The notes below the pieces were generated by a model. That model had not been told where the DNA came from. It saw nothing but the letters and a program-made list of their open reading frames with translations, and searched no databases. Both the position numbers and the translations under genes were made by a program. Positions 5,947-31,034 of a stretch of 34,289 bases of DNA are shown piece after piece; position 1 is the first letter of the stretch, and every line of letters starts with the position of its first letter. The DNA comes from Bacilli bacterium (GTDB lineage Bacteria > Bacillota_I > Bacilli_A > RF39 > UBA660). The stretch is from positions 1-34,289 of the forward strand of contig JAZRAM010000030.1 in the NCBI GenBank assembly GCA_045634565.1, given 5' to 3'.

Positions 5947-6294
5947 AATATTTATTATTTTTATTTTGTTATTAATTTGTTTCTTACATAGCTATAACCA
6001 TTATTGGTTTAGATTTTTCACAATCTAAGAAAGAAAAAAATCAATTTATTTTTCTTTTTTTTGAAAGTGGACTATCTTTTGTCCTTACACATACATAACC
6101 AATTTTAATCTATTTTTTTCACAATCTATTGATTTTTTTTAGTGTTAAATAATTTAACATATTCTTAATTAATTAAGAATGCTAATGTTTCACGTGAAAC
6201 ATTAAAAAAATAAATCTATTCTTATATAACCATTATGGGTTTGTTTTTTTCACAAAAAAACCTCCAAACTTTTTATTGCTTGGAGGGAGTTTTT
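5947..6294 (-). promoter_or_regulatory. composite intergenic module: 3 class I promoter copies + palindromes + terminator
   Basis: Promoter copies at 5983-6026, 6084-6127, 6221-6255. P1 at 6143-6159. ATTCTTAATTAATTAAGAAT palindrome. P2 at 6185-6202. Hairpin at 6261-6287. Confidence 0.75.
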
Positions 6295-6636
6295 TTATTC
6301 TTCGTTATCAGCGTTCATATCATCAGTTAATTCCATGATAAAATATTTATCCATACAAATAACATTAAAAGAATTTCTATATGTTATTTGACCGTTAGCA
6401 CTTTCTATAATTTCTAGATTATTTGTTGTACACCAATCTTTGACTTGAAAAATTTCTTTTTCAACAAACGGTATAAATTTTTTTGGTTCTAAGCCATATT
6501 TTAATACATTTGAACCTGTTACTCGGCCATTACGATATGTCTCACAAATGAGAATTTTTATACGTCCATTATTAATGTAATGTCTGCGACATCCATTGCC
6601 AAATCCGTTTAATATATCATTATGATTTTCACTCAT
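6295..6636 (-). CDS. hypothetical protein
   Basis: 113-aa ORF. Its ATG is 1 nt after the stop of the glucosaminidase gene, so the two are likely co-transcribed. Confidence 0.65.
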   Translation of the reverse strand: MSENHNDILNGFGNGCRRHYINNGRIKILICETYRNGRVTGSNVLKYGLEPKKFIPFVEKEIFQVKDWCTTNNLEIIESANGQITYRNSFNVICMDKYFIMELTDDMNADNEE

Positions 6637-6637
6637 A

Positions 6638-7318
6638 CTATTCTAAATTTAAATCCTTAATTAAATTCAATATTTTATCTTTATAAAATGGGTCTTCTGC
6701 ATAGCCATTCTTAGCTAATATTATATTTAAGTATTTGTCTCTATTGGGTTTTACACCGCTAAATCGCCATTCTTCCCATAATATTCTATCTATAACACTA
6801 CATTCCCAATTTATGTACACTCCATAACCTTTATAGTTTTTACCTTTAATTTGAGTTGTTAGTCGTGTATGAACTTGTTTCATACCAAATAAATTATTAA
6901 CTTCTTTTGCTAACAAAGATGTACCACTTCCACTTTCTAAAATACATTGAGCATAAATGACTTCGGGATACCAAGCACCACATTTTTTAGCAAATTCATA
7001 AATTTTATAAATAGAGTCTGTAGGTATTTTATGACTACCACGAATAATTGATTTCCCAGCTTGGTATTCTAAATCAATAATATGTTTTGTATTTACATTA
7101 ATTGTTTCTAACCTTTCAATTTCTTTTGTTAAGAAATTTTCGTTATACTTGTGATATCCTAATAAAAACAATATACTTATAAGAAATATACTTCCTAATG
7201 TGTATAGGGTAATTTTAATTTGTTTTTTAGTGAAAAAAACTAATTCAGTTTCACTTTGGATATATTTAATATCTTGCAATGTTTTATCGTCTACTATTCT
7301 ATATGTGTATTTTTTCAT
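6638..7318 (-). CDS. membrane-anchored N-acetylglucosaminidase (GH73 / LytD-FlgJ type)
   Basis: 226 aa. AQCILESGSGTSLLAKEVNNLFGMK matches the GH73 catalytic-Glu motif. One TM (ITLYTLGSIFLISILFLLGY) precedes the domain. Confidence 0.8.
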   Translation of the reverse strand: MKKYTYRIVDDKTLQDIKYIQSETELVFFTKKQIKITLYTLGSIFLISILFLLGYHKYNENFLTKEIERLETINVNTKHIIDLEYQAGKSIIRGSHKIPTDSIYKIYEFAKKCGAWYPEVIYAQCILESGSGTSLLAKEVNNLFGMKQVHTRLTTQIKGKNYKGYGVYINWECSVIDRILWEEWRFSGVKPNRDKYLNIILAKNGYAEDPFYKDKILNLIKDLNLE

Positions 7319-7391
7319 ATTAAATTATATTTTAATTAGTATTACATTTATCTAACCATTTATATTTTATTATTTTCACAAATCATTAAAA

Positions 7392-7724
7392 TTAAACGCA
7401 TATATTTTCAATACACCATAATTTTAAATTTGTTGCATTCATTAGAGAGTTATATATTTCGATTCTCATTTGAATTGCTTTTTCGGAATTATCAAAATCA
7501 ATCCGTTGTATTTTTTGAATTATATTATGAGGTAAATGCCCATTGAGAACTTTATTGTACCAAGTGTATGGAGCGTGGTTAGCGTTTGCACGTTCGCTTA
7601 AATCTCTTGAGGTATATGCTACAAAATCATTTGGATATTCATTTTCCCAACGTTGTCGAATAACATCTTTGATAAGTTTTTCAAAATCAATATTATTCTT
7701 AAATGAAGAATTATTATTTTCCAT
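7392..7724 (-). CDS. hypothetical protein
   Basis: 110-aa ORF with a class II palindrome 27 nt upstream. Confidence 0.65.
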   Translation of the reverse strand: MENNNSSFKNNIDFEKLIKDVIRQRWENEYPNDFVAYTSRDLSERANANHAPYTWYNKVLNGHLPHNIIQKIQRIDFDNSEKAIQMRIEIYNSLMNATNLKLWCIENICV

Positions 7725-7750
7725 AGTTATTGTTTATTTTTATACTGATA

Positions 7751-7764
7751 TACTCATTTGAGTA
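7751..7764. promoter_or_regulatory. class II palindrome TACTCATTTGAGTA
   Basis: 27 nt upstream of ATG 7724. Confidence 0.6.
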
Positions 7765-7821
7765 ATATTAGTTAATCAATTTATCTATAATTATTTATTA
7801 TTATTATTATTACTTTATTTG

Positions 7822-8034
7822 TTAATAATTTATATAATTAAGATAGGTATGTTTTGTTAAATACTTAAATTCTCTAATAAAGTTTTCGATAAGCCAATTT
7901 ATGATAGATGTGTAATCTGATAGGTCGGTATAGAGATAGTTATCATCAGCATCCATCTTAACAACCAATTTTCCGAACATATCTACTTCAAAATTAGTAT
8001 TAAAGTATAAATATGACTTCTGTTCCTCAGTCAT
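7822..8034 (-). CDS. hypothetical protein (ATG-defined part; the frame stays open 76 codons further upstream)
   Basis: 70-aa ORF. See feature 8035..8262 and the frameshift finding. Confidence 0.55.
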   Translation of the reverse strand: MTEEQKSYLYFNTNFEVDMFGKLVVKMDADDNYLYTDLSDYTSIINWLIENFIREFKYLTKHTYLNYINY

Positions 8035-8262
8035 ACTTGAAAGAGGGAATAGGTATGGTTTACATTCATCTAAATTGGTAGTCCAAAAACTTTTAGTTGC
8101 ACATTTAAATGTAGCACAATTTGGTTTGTCTATACCATTAAGTTCTAAAACATTACCATATCCATCTTCACATTTTACACCATACGGTAATCTTGAACAT
8201 AAGTCTTTGGTTAATAAATCTTTTTCTGCTTGTGTTATATTTCTTTTATTTTTATATGAATT
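8035..8262 (-). other. stop-free, start-less in-frame extension of CDS 7822..8034 (Cys-rich coding-like sequence)
   Basis: My translation gives ...TQAEKDLLTKDLCSRLPYGVKCEDGYGNVLELNGIDKPNCATFKCATKSFWTTNLDECKPYLFPLSS-MTEEQ. There is no ATG/GTG/TTG, and the other two frames are closed. Confidence 0.6.
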
Positions 8263-8387
8263 TCATTTTCAAGATATATCCAATCTAAATTATAAAGATT
8301 TTCATCATAATCATAAATACGTATCAAACTATCTTCATTTGCTTTTTGTAACAACGATAAAAGCAATTCTTTTTCTTCTTGTGTCAT
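8235..8387 (-). CDS. hypothetical small protein (possible upstream part of a frameshifted gene)
   Basis: I prefer the ATG at 8387 (MTQEEKELL). The 16 extra codons of the track ORF lie on the promoter element. Confidence 0.5.
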   Translation of the reverse strand: MTQEEKELLLSLLQKANEDSLIRIYDYDENLYNLDWIYLENEIHIKIKEI

Positions 8388-29784: not shown

Positions 29785-30014
29785 AACTCTTTAATTTATT
29801 TATTTTCTTACTTACATATATAAAACCATTATTAATACATTTATTTCACAATCTGAGAAAAATAAATCTACTTTTTTAGTGTTAAATAATTTAACATTAA
29901 AAAATAAATCTATACTAATATAACCAATATAACTTCTCTTTTTTCACAATCTTACATATAAAAAAACCTCTAAACTGAAAAAGTTCAGAGGCAAAACAAA
30001 TATTAAAGTTATGA
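29785..30014 (-). promoter_or_regulatory. composite intergenic module (P1 only)
   Basis: Promoter copies at 29811-29854 and 29915-29952. P1 at 29880-29896. Hairpin at 29967-29991. Confidence 0.7.
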
Positions 30015-30197
30015 CTAATCTCTATTAAATAATAAGCATAAAGGTAGGTTCAAAAACATCATTCCAACTATCACACCCAAAAATACTGGAATACTTGAAA
30101 CTTCCATAACCCAATCTATTAAACCGCCAAATATTAAATCAATAAATATTATACCTATTATATATACTTTCATTATCTTTGCTACTATATTTTCCAT
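30015..30197 (-). CDS. small membrane protein (2 TM)
   Basis: 60 aa with two hydrophobic helices. Has its own class I promoter and a terminator at 29967-29991. Confidence 0.55.
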   Translation of the reverse strand: MENIVAKIMKVYIIGIIFIDLIFGGLIDWVMEVSSIPVFLGVIVGMMFLNLPLCLLFNRD

Positions 30198-30231
30198 ATC
30201 TCTTTAATTTATTTATTTGTTTATTTTCTTA

Positions 30232-30272
30232 CTTACATACATAAAACCATTATCAATAAAAATAATTCACAA
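30232..30272 (-). promoter_or_regulatory. class I promoter-like element (last minus-oriented copy)
   Basis: cttacatacataaaaccattatcaataaaaataattcacaa, upstream of ATG 30197. Confidence 0.55.
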
Positions 30273-30323
30273 AATATCAATTTATTTTTTATATTGAAAA
30301 TGTAAATTTTTTTTTGTTCAAAT

Positions 30324-30363
30324 CGTGAAATAAATAAATTTAAATTGGTTCTATAGTTGTAAG
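30324..30363 (+). promoter_or_regulatory. class I promoter-like element, plus orientation
   Basis: cgtgaaataaataaatttaaattggttctatagttgtaag, 30 nt upstream of ATG 30393. Confidence 0.6.
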
Positions 30364-30392
30364 AATAAAACAAATATAAAAGATATAAAGAT

Positions 30393-30953
30393 ATGAAACA
30401 AAAAGATTTTAAGGCTGTAGCTAAATGCGTTTGTCATGATAAATCCCATAAAATAATGAATCATGATATTACAAAAGTATGGTGTAATAAAAATCACCTT
30501 TATGCAACTAATTGTTTTGTAATGGTCGGAATCAAAACCGACTATCCAAAAGAGTGGGAAAATTGCGTTGTTAGTACAGACCAAAAAAATATATCAAACC
30601 CAACTTGGAAAACTTGGAATAAATGGACTAAATATCTATTATCTAAACCAAAAGAAAAATGTATTAATACATTCAAATTAGATAAAGAACTAATCGAAAA
30701 AGGTTTAGAATTATGTAAACAAAAAAACGATATAAAATACATTAGAATTAATGATGCGTTCTTTGAAAAAAGAAACTTGAAAATAATTTTGGATTTAATG
30801 AAACATTATGGTATATACAAATTCCAATTATATAATTATGAAACACAAAATATACGTTTATTCATTAAAAACGAAAATATTATATGCACTGCTTTAGCAA
30901 CATTTTTCTCAATAGAAAAAATAGATAAAGTCAATTGTAGTAAATGGCTGTAA
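30393..30953 (+). CDS. hypothetical protein
   Basis: 186-aa ORF with a plus-oriented class I promoter at 30324-30363. The overlapping minus ORFs are shadows. Confidence 0.7.
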   Translation: MKQKDFKAVAKCVCHDKSHKIMNHDITKVWCNKNHLYATNCFVMVGIKTDYPKEWENCVVSTDQKNISNPTWKTWNKWTKYLLSKPKEKCINTFKLDKELIEKGLELCKQKNDIKYIRINDAFFEKRNLKIILDLMKHYGIYKFQLYNYETQNIRLFIKNENIICTALATFFSIEKIDKVNCSKWL

Positions 30954-30967
30954 AATTTGAAAGGTTT

Positions 30968-31008
30968 CTGTGAATAAAATAAATTTAAATTGGTTATATA
31001 GATGTAAG
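30968..31008 (+). promoter_or_regulatory. class I promoter-like element, plus orientation
   Basis: ctgtgaataaaataaatttaaattggttatatagatgtaag, upstream of ATG 31035. The leader ends ataagagatATG. Confidence 0.65.
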
Positions 31009-31034
31009 ATAACTAAACTAAAAATATAAGAGAT

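What the first reader, a model, noticed from the sequence alone, without database searches (positions are those of the whole stretch)
5947..31015. About 45 copies of one promoter-like element make almost every small ORF its own terminator-promoter cassette
Seen in the sequence: by eye I count 41 minus-oriented and 4 plus-oriented copies of an element of about 45 nt. In gene orientation it reads (AAAAAGTAGATTTATTTTT)-nnAGA-TTGTGAAAAA-(11-13 nt, often TCTAGATTnAAA)-TTGGTTATATA-GATGTAAGAAACAA. In 43 of 45 cases its orientation matches the ORF immediately downstream, including the strand switch at 30.3 kb. It ends 25-60 nt before the ATG. In many genes the leader is conserved all the way to the start codon (ATAAAGAGAT-ATG at 18772, 23908, 27651, 28291 and 30197, with the variant ATAAGAGAT-ATG at 23061 and 31035). 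About ten copies are fused directly to the T-run of a terminator hairpin that is itself conserved in sequence (CTCCAAAC-GATAAAAA-GTTTGGAG). Three of these hairpins are identical with identical flanks (17961, 19381, 23149). Inference: this is a phage-specific, probably early, promoter class. The gap of about 21 nt between TTGTGA and TATATA fits neither the sigma70 17-bp spacing nor the Bacteroidota -33/-7 layout as I remember it. A phage-encoded or phage-modified RNA polymerase is therefore plausible. Sequence-level conservation of terminator, promoter and leader implies spread by duplication or recombination. The closest described analogue I know is the PeSL (promoter-early stem-loop) cassette that shuffles small ORFs in T4-type phages.
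Basis: partly seen in the sequence, partly recalled or inferred. Interest (0 to 1): 0.75.

Follow-up and report, generated by a model that had tools for sequence, protein, structure and literature searches.

The report
Repeated promoter-terminator cassettes shuffling phage genes
An uncultivated, very AT-rich phage puts the same 40-base promoter-like element (45 copies, often fused to a terminator) in front of almost every small gene, and related phages have swapped, lost or moved genes at these elements, as described for T4-type phages, but the sequence fits no housekeeping promoter type.

Summary
There are 45 copies (41 minus, 4 plus) of a fixed-frame element, TTGTGAAAwA-N13-TGGTTwTAT. All are intergenic, 43 point at the next ORF, and no shuffle comes close. 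Thirty-three copies ("class 1") continue with nnnTGTAAGAAACAA and a leader. Twelve ("class 2") continue with AGAATAGATTTATTTTT and a strictly conserved palindrome (ATGTT-N8/9-AACAT), usually followed by a class-1 copy. About 17 copies abut an intrinsic terminator.

Between related contigs the invariant positions are 98% conserved and the spacer 78%. Six related metagenomic contigs differ from the window by insertion, loss, replacement and reordering of single ORFs. The junctions lie at these elements, and some junction copies are chimeric. This is what the T4-type PeSL cassette model describes.

The invariant blocks GTGAAA and TGGTT lie 15-16 bp apart, which is normal sigma-factor geometry. 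The boxes match neither sigma70 (TTGACA/TATAAT) nor the Bacteroidota type (TTG/TAnnTTTG), so a non-housekeeping or phage-specified specificity factor is likely. A phage RNA polymerase is untested.

Verdict: a real feature and a new variant of a known kind.

The parts
5983..6023 (-). class-1 promoter-like copy (T1=6023), upstream of ORF 5656-5946
   Evidence: 43.7 bits
6084..6124 (-). class-1 copy
   Evidence: 45.9 bits
6215..6255 (-). class-2 copy fused to terminator, followed by pal1 and pal2
7341..7381 (-). class-1 copy (weak, 22.7 bits), ORF 6638-7318
8410..8450 (-). class-1 copy, ORF 8235-8387
8556..8596 (-). class-2 copy after terminator (about 8600-8636)
9823..9863 (-). class-1 copy (30.5 bits), 208 nt before ORF 9252-9620
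10436..10476 (-). class-1 copy, ORF 9881-10393
10758..10798 (-). class-1 copy, ORF 10514-10732
10827..10867 (+). class-2 copy, antisense, back-to-back with 10798 and convergent with 10989
10949..10989 (-). class-2 copy fused to terminator
12195..12235 (-). class-1 copy, ORF 11029-12147 (DUF932)
12648..12688 (-). class-1 copy, ORF 12331-12627
12745..12786 (-). class-2 copy with spacer one base longer, fused to terminator
14188..14228 (-). class-1 copy, ORF 13915-14163
15360..15400 (-). class-1 copy starting 2 nt after the stop of ORF 15402-15791; right border of the ORF129 cassette
15816..15856 (-). class-1 copy, left border of the ORF129 cassette
15954..15994 (-). class-2 copy fused to terminator
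16828..16869 (-). class-1 copy with spacer one base longer, ORF 16045-16809
17190..17230 (-). class-1 copy, ORF 16887-17129
17908..17948 (-). class-1 copy fused to terminator, ORF 17247-17882
18830..18870 (-). class-1 copy, ORF 17993-18772
19326..19366 (-). class-1 copy fused to terminator, ORF 18894-19301
19796..19836 (-). class-1 copy, ORF 19416-19724
19896..19936 (-). class-1 copy (tandem)
20043..20083 (-). class-2 copy fused to terminator
21345..21385 (-). class-1 copy fused to terminator 21384-21412, ORF 20828-21310
22037..22077 (-). class-1 copy, ORF 21430-22014
22175..22215 (-). class-2 copy fused to terminator 22227-22259
23095..23135 (-). class-1 copy fused to terminator, ORF 22270-23061
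23930..23970 (-). class-1 copy after hairpin (about 23984-24015), ORF 23195-23908
24643..24683 (-). class-1 copy after terminator 24701-24726, ORF 24028-24627
25951..25991 (-). class-1 copy, ORF 24769-25884 (GmrSD_N + HNH)
27009..27049 (-). class-1 copy, ORF 26013-26975 (EcoRI-type methyltransferase)
27108..27148 (-). class-2 copy fused to terminator
27672..27712 (-). class-1 copy fused to terminator, ORF 27208-27651
28321..28361 (-). class-1 copy, ORF 27782-28291
28390..28430 (+). class-2 copy, antisense, back-to-back with 28361
28584..28624 (-). class-2-like copy after terminator 28631-28658
28937..28977 (-). class-1 copy, ORF 28693-28851
29811..29851 (-). class-1 copy, ORF 29473-29784
29909..29949 (-). 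class-2 copy after terminator 29966-29992
30232..30272 (-). class-1 copy (27 bits), ORF 30015-30197; divergent partner of 30323
30323..30363 (+). class-1 copy, ORF 30393-30953
30968..31008 (+). class-1 copy, ORF 31035-31298
6262..6285 (-). conserved terminator hairpin CTCCAAnC..GTTTGGAG followed by a T-run
10996..11019 (-). conserved terminator hairpin
12793..12816 (-). conserved terminator hairpin
16001..16024 (-). conserved terminator hairpin
17962..17985 (-). conserved terminator hairpin
19382..19405 (-). conserved terminator hairpin
20090..20113 (-). conserved terminator hairpin
23150..23173 (-). conserved terminator hairpin
27155..27178 (-). conserved terminator hairpin
27719..27742 (-). 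conserved terminator hairpin
6185..6202 (.). pal1 ATGTTTCACGTGAAACAT
8527..8544 (.). pal1
10920..10937 (.). pal1
15925..15942 (.). pal1
20013..20030 (.). pal1
22146..22163 (.). pal1
6143..6159 (.). pal2 TGTTAAATTATTTAACA
8479..8495 (.). pal2
10880..10896 (.). pal2
12717..12733 (.). pal2
15885..15901 (.). pal2
19965..19981 (.). pal2
22106..22122 (.). pal2
27079..27095 (.). pal2 variant
28443..28459 (.). pal2 variant
29880..29896 (.). pal2
1990..2039 (-). single copy of the sister-type element (stem-loop AACGGAAC..GTTCCGTT + ATAT) upstream of ORF 1427-1981

Best explanation
Each element is a promoter of a class private to this phage. It is read by a bacterial-type RNA polymerase holoenzyme through two boxes in normal sigma geometry.

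Proposed anatomy (inferred):
- A -35-like box, tGTGAAA, at positions 2-8.
- A -10-like box, TGGTTwTAT, at positions 24-32, 15-16 bp downstream.
- Transcription starts a few bases further on, within gaTGTAAg (about positions 35-40).
- The result is a short, A-rich leader without a Shine-Dalgarno sequence.

Because the boxes match no housekeeping consensus, the specificity subunit is most likely a non-housekeeping factor, either phage-encoded or ECF-like, or a phage-modified host enzyme (inferred).

About 17 copies follow an intrinsic terminator directly, so most small ORFs form insulated terminator-promoter-leader-ORF units.

The 40-130 bp of sequence shared between units also serves as substrate for homologous recombination. 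That recombination inserts, deletes, replaces and reorders single ORFs between related phages, as PeSL cassettes do in T4-type phages. The comparison of genomes shows this pattern; recombination as its cause is inferred.

A 12-copy subclass has the same two boxes but a different transcribed start. It is followed at a fixed distance by a strictly conserved palindrome, which is probably the site of a dimeric regulator, and usually sits in tandem upstream of a class-1 copy.
For: Position and orientation:
- 45 of 45 copies are intergenic and 43 of 45 are gene-oriented. Scores are bimodal and no shuffle comes near.
- Same-strand genes are separated by terminators (21 found against 2.9 expected), so downstream genes need their own promoter. 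This element is the only conserved sequence between terminator and ATG.
- Copies are confined to the ORFan region. None lies in window 1-5.9 kb or 31-34.3 kb. The 10 kb to the right, read from a relative, has one weak copy.

Selection on the boxes:
- The invariant positions fall into two blocks 15-16 bp apart, plus TGTAA.
- Orthologous copies in two relatives are 98.4% identical at invariant positions (1200/1219). Spacer positions are 77.7% identical (618/795) and flanks 88.5%.

Shuffling at the elements:
- 30 of 38 homology breakpoints lie within -60..+80 of a copy, a zone that covers 24% of the region.
- ORF 15402-15791 lies between two copies in the window. Two independent relatives have one chimeric copy at that place.
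- Two cassettes are in swapped order in one relative.
- The same ORF (97% aa identity) has three different downstream neighbours and two different upstream neighbours across five genomes.
- One junction copy has a window-type upstream half and a sister-type leader, joined at GTTATAT.

Sister element:
- It keeps the GTTATAT core and the leader.
- It places an invariant box 16 nt upstream of the core, in the loop of a covarying stem-loop. This is a composite of the PeSL kind (PMC2839356).

Palindromes:
- pal1 is identical in 13 of 13 copies across three genomes, while its flanks vary.
Against: - No transcription data exist. The start site, the timing and the polymerase are all inferred.
- The -10-like box lacks the A-11/T-7 pattern of sigma70 promoters and the TTTG of Bacteroidota promoters. 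Recognition by a sigma factor is therefore an argument from geometry only.
- The two kinds of upstream half (GTGAAA box, or stem-loop with ACTTCATAAA) coexist in one gene pool and resemble each other only loosely. This weakens the reading of the upstream box as a -35 element. The real core could be GTTATAT plus the start region.
- No sigma or polymerase gene was found in the 44 kb available.
- Breakpoints of gene-sized mosaics would fall in intergenic DNA anyway, and shared promoters extend alignments up to themselves.
- Exact repeats of up to 81 nt could mislead short-k assemblers. This concern applies to contig E (SPAdes-style name), and less to the k141 contigs.
Confidence: 0.7

Rival explanations
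1. The element is an ordinary early promoter for the housekeeping sigma of the (unknown) host, whose consensus simply differs from the characterised ones. T4-type PeSL promoters likewise use sigma70.
For: - PeSL promoters, and the early promoters of large lytic phages in general, use the host's primary sigma (PMC2839356).
- The two-box geometry with 15-16 bp spacing fits a sigma70-family enzyme.
- A T-rich tract lies where an UP element would sit.
Against: - The boxes match neither TTGACA/TATAAT (consensus scan not enriched, 126 against 150 expected) nor TTG-N19-21-TAnnTTTG (6 against 3.9 expected, none gene-oriented).
- SD-less leaders and the glucosaminidase homologues point to a Bacteroidota host.
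- A Bacteroidota phage whose middle and late genes are read by host polymerase carries canonical TTG-N20-TAnnTTTG promoters.
- No bacterial genome among 185,579 species holds more than one match to the element.
Confidence: 0.15
2. The element is the promoter of a phage-encoded RNA polymerase, either single-subunit or a multisubunit virion enzyme of the kind found in jumbo phages.
For: - The element is private to the lineage. It is strongly conserved through the presumed start site (TGTAA), as T7-type promoters are.
- Jumbo phages with their own polymerases have a conserved AT-rich motif near -10 upstream of early operons (PMC7598289).
- Relatives of this phage include a 350-kb contig.
Against: - A bipartite element with a variable 13-bp spacer is unlike T7-type promoters (contiguous, about 23 bp; own knowledge). 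It is also unlike jumbo-phage early motifs, which are about 10 nt with no upstream box.
- The only lineage hint is a T4-type capsid gene and prohead protease near a distant homologue. T4-type phages use the host enzyme.
- No polymerase gene is present in the sequence in hand.
Confidence: 0.12
3. The element is not a promoter. It is a recombination or attachment site, or the end of a small mobile element, that delimits gene cassettes in the manner of an integron. Alternatively it is an RNA-level processing signal in long polycistronic transcripts.
For: - Cassette junctions coincide with the elements.
- Two class-2 copies form inverted pairs around palindromes, like terminal inverted repeats.
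- The sister element contains a covarying stem-loop.
Against: - No integrase or recombinase is present in the window. The only transposase-like gene is a TnpB 15 kb away in a relative.
- Strong terminators precede many copies, so transcription must restart there.
- The element always sits at the 5' side of the ORF at promoter distance. Its conserved blocks lie about two and one helical turns apart, as expected for a protein bound on one face of the DNA.
- The window-type element itself has no conserved RNA structure.
Confidence: 0.05

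Closest known systems
PeSL (promoter-early stem-loop) cassettes of T4-type phages (Arbiol et al. 2010, PMC2839356; Comeau et al. 2014, PMC4122927)
   Same: - About 50 repeated composite promoter plus stem-loop/terminator motifs, concentrated in a hyperplastic region in front of ORFans.
- Conservation reaches from an AT-rich upstream tract to the start codon.
- Close relatives differ by indels and replacements of single ORFs flanked by the motifs. This includes the textbook case of an ORF between two copies in one genome and a single chimeric copy in the other.
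- In the sister element the stem-loop overlaps the promoter boxes, as in some PeSL subclasses.
   Different: [quoted passage not shown] Here the boxes (GTGAAA / TGGTTwTAT) fit no housekeeping consensus.
- Leaders lack a Shine-Dalgarno sequence.
- The window's terminators are separate, sequence-conserved hairpins upstream of the promoter.
- A subclass is coupled to conserved palindromes.
- Membership of this phage in the T4 group is only hinted at.
- Mini-circles and promoter/terminator activity have not been tested.
Intergenic repeats of halovirus HF2 that carry promoters (PMC8707807, seen)
   Same: Two classes of repeated intergenic sequence, scattered between the genes of a tailed virus, that act as promoters.
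   Different: HF2 has an archaeal host and TATA-type promoters. The comparison rests on title and abstract only. No terminator fusion or cassette shuffling was checked.
Group-4 (ECF) sigma promoters, e.g. -35 GGAA(T/C) and -10 GTT of C. glutamicum SigH (PMC6338062)
   Same: A G-AA-containing -35 box and a (G/C)GTT -10 box. The window element reads TGAAA-N17-GTT and the sister element reads ..CGTT. The 16-19 bp spacing usual for such promoters is my own knowledge and was not checked in a paper.
   Different: This is a resemblance of short motifs only. No ECF-like sigma gene was found. The element has extra conserved bases (TAT, TGTAA) that ECF promoters lack.
Middle/late promoters of crAss-like phage phi14:2, read by host Bacteroidota RNA polymerase (bioRxiv 10.1101/2020.03.07.982082)
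   Same: An extended, multi-block conserved promoter motif that recurs upstream of the genes of a phage infecting a host without Shine-Dalgarno use.
   Different: The phi14:2 promoters are canonical TTG-N20-TAnnTTTG. The element here is not.

Membership tests
PeSL cassettes (T4-type phages) | Repeated composite of a promoter motif and a stem-loop that can terminate transcription | tested here: met
   About 17 of 45 copies directly follow a hairpin plus T-run. In the sister element a covarying 14-bp stem-loop overlaps the boxes. Activity itself was not tested.
PeSL cassettes (T4-type phages) | The promoter part matches the host sigma70 consensus (-35/-10, AT-rich upstream tract) | tested here: not met
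   No A-11/T-7 type -10 hexamer. The sigma70 scan is not enriched. An AT-rich upstream tract is present.
PeSL cassettes (T4-type phages) | Concentrated in hyperplastic regions, immediately upstream of ORFans | tested here: met
   All copies lie in 6.0-31.0 kb. Nearly all downstream ORFs lack Pfam or PHROG matches.
PeSL cassettes (T4-type phages) | Indels and replacements between close relatives are bounded by the motifs, with chimeric motifs at junctions | tested here: met
PeSL cassettes (T4-type phages) | The carrier is a T4-type myovirus | tested here: inconclusive
   A 38%-identical homologue of the 695-aa ORF lies beside Gp23 and Peptidase_S77 genes in L201, from a 40-kb contig; the same protein also occurs on a 350-kb contig. 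A phrog_5268 neighbour is shared. No hallmark gene is in the window itself.
PeSL cassettes (T4-type phages) | Formation of excised mini-circles; measured promoter and terminator activity | not testable with these tools
   Needs phage DNA or RNA.
Sigma70-type promoter | TTGACA, 16-18 bp spacer, TATAAT with A-11 and T-7 | tested here: not met
Bacteroidota housekeeping promoter | -33 TTG(TTTG) and -7 TAnnTTTG, 19-21 bp apart, start 4-5 nt after the G | tested here: not met
   In frame only TA....TG is kept (T30 A31 .. T36 G37). T-8 and T-7 are not conserved, and TTG lies 26 nt upstream of T30. The full pattern is not enriched. Positive control: the phi14:2 promoters.
Sigma54 promoter | GG at -24 and GC at -12, exactly one helical turn apart | tested here: not met
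   TGG-N9-TG is present in class 1, but T stands in place of the conserved C, and class 2 lacks the second box. The consensus is from my own knowledge.
T7-type single-subunit polymerase promoter | One contiguous conserved block of about 23 bp from -17 to +6 | tested here: not met
   The element has two blocks separated by a fast-evolving 13-bp spacer. The definition is from my own knowledge.
Jumbo-phage virion-polymerase early promoter | A conserved AT-rich motif of about 10 nt centred near -10, no -35 box, and polymerase beta/beta' genes in the genome | tested here: inconclusive
   A block near -10 exists, but with an upstream box as well (PMC7598289). The genome is incomplete, so polymerase genes cannot be checked.

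The most novel reading that the evidence does not exclude
The cassettes carry a promoter architecture not described before: box T(G/C)A(A/T)AAA, then 16-17 bp, then GTTATAT, then a conserved start region. It would be read through a phage-specified sigma-like factor, or a phage polymerase, in a huge Bacteroidota-infecting phage.

The element would be built from three exchangeable modules (upstream half, 7-bp core, leader) that recombine at the core.

In the tandem modules a palindrome-binding regulator would switch expression between an upstream (class-2) and a downstream (class-1) promoter.
Probability: 0.3. Interest if true: 0.75.

Novelty: new variant of a known kind. Interest (0 to 1): 0.55.

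Why it matters
The finding extends the PeSL principle. Promoter-terminator repeats serve both as gene-by-gene expression units and as landing pads for gene shuffling. Here that principle appears outside cultured T4-type coliphages and vibriophages, in an uncultivated, 25%-GC phage group from gut-type metagenomes, probably with a Bacteroidota host.

It supplies a ready-made set of 45 aligned promoters with mapped invariant positions, for a polymerase specificity that is not the host housekeeping one. That set can be tested directly and could serve as an orthogonal expression part.

It also shows at base resolution how ORFan cassettes move between related phages. This bears on how anti-defence and accessory genes spread.

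Tried and rejected
- **Close relatives in GenBank phages.** blastn in distant mode with 8 kb found only Trp-repeat genes of Listeria and Bacillus jumbo phages. tblastn with the 695-aa ORF found nothing.
- **IMG/VR.** Two pattern scans and two protein scans gave only chance singletons.
- **Species-level bacterial and archaeal genomes.** Two pattern scans gave only singletons, so the element is not a host motif.
- **Literature search for the sequence strings and for sample accessions.** Nothing relevant.
- **Rfam.** Only a tRNA in the whole window, and nothing credible in the GC-rich island.
- **Sigma factor, polymerase, integrase or helix-turn-helix regulator among the window's ORFs and the 10 kb to the right.** None found.
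- **Archaeal virus with a BRE/TATA promoter.** I considered this because of TTATATA and a Methanobrevibacter contig in the same metagenome. I rejected it because of bacterial-type intrinsic terminators, a murein glucosaminidase, the absence of the strong SD that methanogens use (own knowledge), and T4-type relatives.
- **Giant eukaryotic virus.** Rejected on the same grounds.
- **Sigma54 reading.** Rejected: no GC at -12.
- **5' hairpins in six leaders as a marker of the start site.** Only weak support. One of them is lost in relatives and none shows covariation.
- **Exact look-up of the window's own 695-aa protein.** It failed. Relatives had to be reached through homologues.

Full report
**The window**

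The window is 34,289 bp at 22-31% G+C. It is a whole NCBI contig. Genes run on the minus strand up to about 30.3 kb and on the plus strand after that. Almost all ORFs lack any Pfam or PHROG match. The exceptions are a GmrSD_N+HNH protein, an EcoRI-type adenine methyltransferase, a DUF932 protein, a glucosaminidase and several Trp-repeat paralogues.

- Anchoring on TTGTGAAA and TGGTTWT shows a strictly fixed frame of 30 bp between T1 and the T of TGGTTWT.
- An iterated weight matrix finds 43 copies at 22-56 bits. Nothing else scores between 0 and 22 bits except the two copies with a spacer one base longer (0.9 and 3.2 bits in the fixed frame). Ten shuffles all stayed below 0 bits.
- That makes 45 copies, 41 on the minus and 4 on the plus strand, all between 5983 and 31008.
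- All 45 are intergenic, in a window that is 79% coding. Forty-three point at the next gene.
- The conserved hairpin CTCCAAAC-GATAAAAA-GTTTGGAG occurs ten times, always directly upstream of a copy. Counting other hairpins, about 17 copies abut a terminator. Terminator-like sites number 21 against 2.9 expected.
- Leaders are shared up to the ATG between unrelated genes. For example, the leaders of the copies at 21385, 23135 and 27049 are nearly identical.

**Anatomy**

The invariant or nearly invariant positions are T2 G3 T4 G5 A6 A7 A8, A10, A20, A22, T24 G25 G26 T27 T28 and T30 A31 T32.

There are two subclasses:
- **Class 1** (33 copies) continues with nnn-T36 G37 T38 A39 A40-GAAACAA and reaches the ATG within about 20-90 nt of position +36.
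- **Class 2** (12 copies) continues with (A/T)AG(A/T)A(T/G)AGATTTATTTTT. At +53/54 comes a palindrome, either pal1 (ATGTTTCACGTGAAACAT) or pal2 (ATGTTAAATTATTTAACAT). Both have the form ATGTT-N8/9-AACAT.

The full module occurs six to ten times. It reads: terminator, class-2 copy, pal1, 22-30 nt, pal2, AAAAAGTAGATTTATTTTT-CTCAGA, class-1 copy, leader, ORF.

pal1 is identical in 13 of 13 copies across three genomes while its flanks vary. pal2 ends 28 nt before T1 of the class-1 copy in seven modules, 29 nt in one and 18 nt in one. The 18-nt case is one helical turn shorter.

The two antisense copies (10827+, 28390+) are class 2. They sit back-to-back with class-1 copies and converge on the palindromes.

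**Evidence of function**

With so many terminators between co-oriented genes, transcription must restart. This element is the only conserved sequence between terminator and start codon.

I compared orthologous copies in two related contigs:
- JK is JAEIGA010000847.1. It is identical over 10.9 kb to ERZ27234996 k141_2019131.
- E is ERZ1767636 NODE_1589.
- Both are about 90% identical to the window.

The invariant positions are 98.4% identical (1200/1219), spacer positions 77.7% (618/795) and flanks 88.5%. The boxes are therefore under purifying selection. The spacer changes faster than its surroundings, as expected if copies exchange segments.

**Who reads it**

The invariant blocks GTGAAA (3-8) and TGGTT (24-28) lie 15-16 bp apart, which is ordinary -35/-10 geometry.
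- The boxes themselves are not housekeeping boxes. There is no A-11/T-7 hexamer, and sigma70-like matches are not enriched (126 against 150 expected).
- Leaders have essentially no Shine-Dalgarno sequence. Phage homologues of the glucosaminidase are mostly from Bacteroides, crAss-like and Flavobacterium phages. A more distant relative carries a Fib_succ_major gene. These are hints of a Bacteroidota host, whose mRNAs lack SD (PMC6847099).
- The Bacteroidota consensus is T-12 A-11 H H T-8 T-7 T-6 G-5, with -33 TTG. I checked that the host-transcribed promoters of Cellulophaga phage phi14:2 are canonical TTG-N20-TAnnTTTG. The element here keeps only TA....TG in that frame, and TTG lies too far upstream. 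The full Bacteroidota pattern is neither enriched nor gene-oriented in the window or in JK (6 against 3.9 expected).
- No bacterial or archaeal species genome, and no IMG/VR contig, holds more than one match.
- The short motifs resemble group-4 sigma promoters (-35 GGAA(T/C), -10 GTT; PMC6338062). The window element reads TGAAA-N17-GTT. This is a lead, not a test.
- My reading is a bacterial-type holoenzyme with a non-housekeeping specificity factor that is phage-encoded, co-injected or ECF-like. A phage polymerase or an unknown host consensus remain as rivals.
- The start site is inferred at about positions 35-40, and nothing here measures it.

**Cassette shuffling**

Against JK and E the window shows about ten cassette-level differences in 24 kb. 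Thirty of 38 homology endpoints lie within -60..+80 of a copy, a zone that covers 24% of the region.

- *A clean insertion or deletion.* ORF 15402-15791 (129 aa) lies between the copies at 15856 and 15400. JK and E each have a single copy there. Its upstream part matches the 15856 copy (pal2 and the upstream box) and its leader matches the 15400 copy. This is the RB49 ORF192 / phi1 situation used to define PeSL-mediated shuffling (PMC2839356).
- *A reordering.* The window has the gene order 18894-19301, then 17993-18772, then 17247-17882. JK has the first two in the opposite order.
- *One ORF in several contexts.* The 129-aa ORF is found at 97% identity on four further contigs (L293-L296). Its downstream neighbour is a 185-aa gene in the window and L293, a 147-aa DUF723 gene in L294 and L296, and a 175-aa gene in L295. 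Its upstream neighbour is a 254-aa or a 165-aa gene. In all of them a window-type copy starts 2 nt after its stop codon.

**A sister form of the element**

Contigs L293-L296 carry a different repeat in front of nearly every other ORF. There are 22 copies there and one in the window at 2039-1990. It reads:

TTTAACAnnTnTT-AACGGAAAnnCAC-TTCATAAA-nnnGTGnTTTTCCGTT-ATAT, followed by AAGCGAAAGAAACAAA, AGATGTAA.. or GTATGTAACAAACA.

- It shares the core GTTATAT and the leader with the window type. Its upstream half is a 14-bp stem-loop.
- The stem-loop is supported by covariation. Four pairs show compensatory changes. Cells are 89.9% paired, against 40-52% when the partners are slid. None of 500 shuffles reaches the observed score.
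- The loop holds an invariant box, ACTTCATAAA, 16 nt upstream of GTT. This is the PeSL layout in which the stem-loop overlaps the promoter boxes.
- One copy (L294 position 2110) has a window-type upstream half and a sister-type leader, joined at GTTATAT. L295 is window-like (93-97% nt identity) on one side of the 129-aa ORF and sister-like on the other. The two forms therefore circulate in one gene pool and recombine at the element.
- This also weakens the assignment of GTGAAA as a -35 box. The only universal part is GTTATAT plus the start region.

**Caveats**

- All relatives are metagenomic contigs. The longest exact repeat in the cassette region is 81 nt. That is shorter than the k of 141 used for the MEGAHIT contigs (JK), but longer than the default metaSPAdes k (own knowledge), which may apply to E.
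- The key junctions recur in independent samples (JK and E; L294 and L296).
- Lineage assignment is indirect. The 695-aa ORF has a 38%-identical homologue that occurs on a 350-kb contig. In L201, from a 40-kb contig carrying the same protein, it lies beside T4-type Gp23 and prohead protease genes. A phrog_5268 neighbour is shared.

**Verdict**

The feature is real and the description accurate. It is best filed as a PeSL-like promoter-terminator cassette system in a new phage group. It has a non-canonical promoter, a palindrome-coupled subclass and a stem-loop-bearing sister form. It is a new variant of a known kind, and the identity of the polymerase specificity factor remains open.

Noticed in passing
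window 31298-31568 (+): A G/C-rich island (runs of CCCCTCCCC and GGGG) in a 25%-GC genome. On the plus strand it folds into a row of strong hairpins (MFE -91.5 kcal/mol, z = -3.9; minus strand z = -1.2). It ends in a long hairpin followed by eight T at about 31506-31568. It is conserved in the relative K and matches no Rfam family. It separates the motif-driven plus-strand ORFs from the 695-aa gene, so it looks like a strong terminator or insulator.
   Followed up: partly
window 41, 1408, 2952, 4371, 7763, 9898, 13418, 14763, 17187, 18827, 20809, 21426 (minus-strand coordinates): A second intergenic repeat, the 12-nt palindrome ACTCAAWTGAGT. It is often preceded by TATATA and followed by TATAAT, TAATTAAT or TATTAATT. 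It sits upstream of most of the genes that lack the main element, including most of the left-hand 6 kb. It could be another promoter class or an RNA processing or stability hairpin.
   Followed up: partly
window 4390-4464 (-): A tRNA gene (Rfam 44.9 bits) whose anticodon loop appears to be 8 nt long. ARAGORN calls a four-base anticodon 'atat' and gives no amino acid.
   Followed up: no
window 1427-1981, 3220-3771, 3783-4331, 14277-14711, 17247-17882: Five paralogous genes made of internal Trp-containing repeats. They are about 67% identical at the DNA level to genes of Listeria phage LPJP1, Bacillus phage G and Bacillus phage BpSp ('tryptophan repeat gene family'). More copies lie on other contigs of the same metagenome (L021, L131).
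   Followed up: partly
window 31665-33752 (+): A 695-aa ORF conserved at 33-42% identity in more distant phage contigs, including one of 350 kb. Its C-terminus carries a phosphoribosyltransferase-like motif (VFDDDMDTGAS), and JGI labels two homologues hypoxanthine phosphoribosyltransferase. It has no Pfam or PHROG match.
   Followed up: partly
L209 (relative K) 12150-22085; window 31600-31664: Larger genes outside the cassette region lack the main element. Instead they have AT boxes such as TTATATTATATAATAA (upstream of the 695-, 510- and 151-aa genes). The 389-aa gene has a TATAAATA about 15 nt before its start, like a T4 late promoter, and also one weak, diverged copy of the main element at K 15507.
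   Followed up: partly
L209 18674-20314 (-): A TnpB-type gene (Cas12f1-like_TNB) lies in the relative, 6.6 kb to the right of the 695-aa gene.
   Followed up: no
window 3-8 of each copy, and pal1 sites (e.g. 15925-15942): The hexamer GTGAAA of the upstream box is also the half-site of pal1 (TTTCAC|GTGAAA). In four copies the box is duplicated in tandem (TTGTGAGATTGTGAAA at 12688, 17230, 19936, 22077). This may be chance in an AT-rich genome.
   Followed up: no
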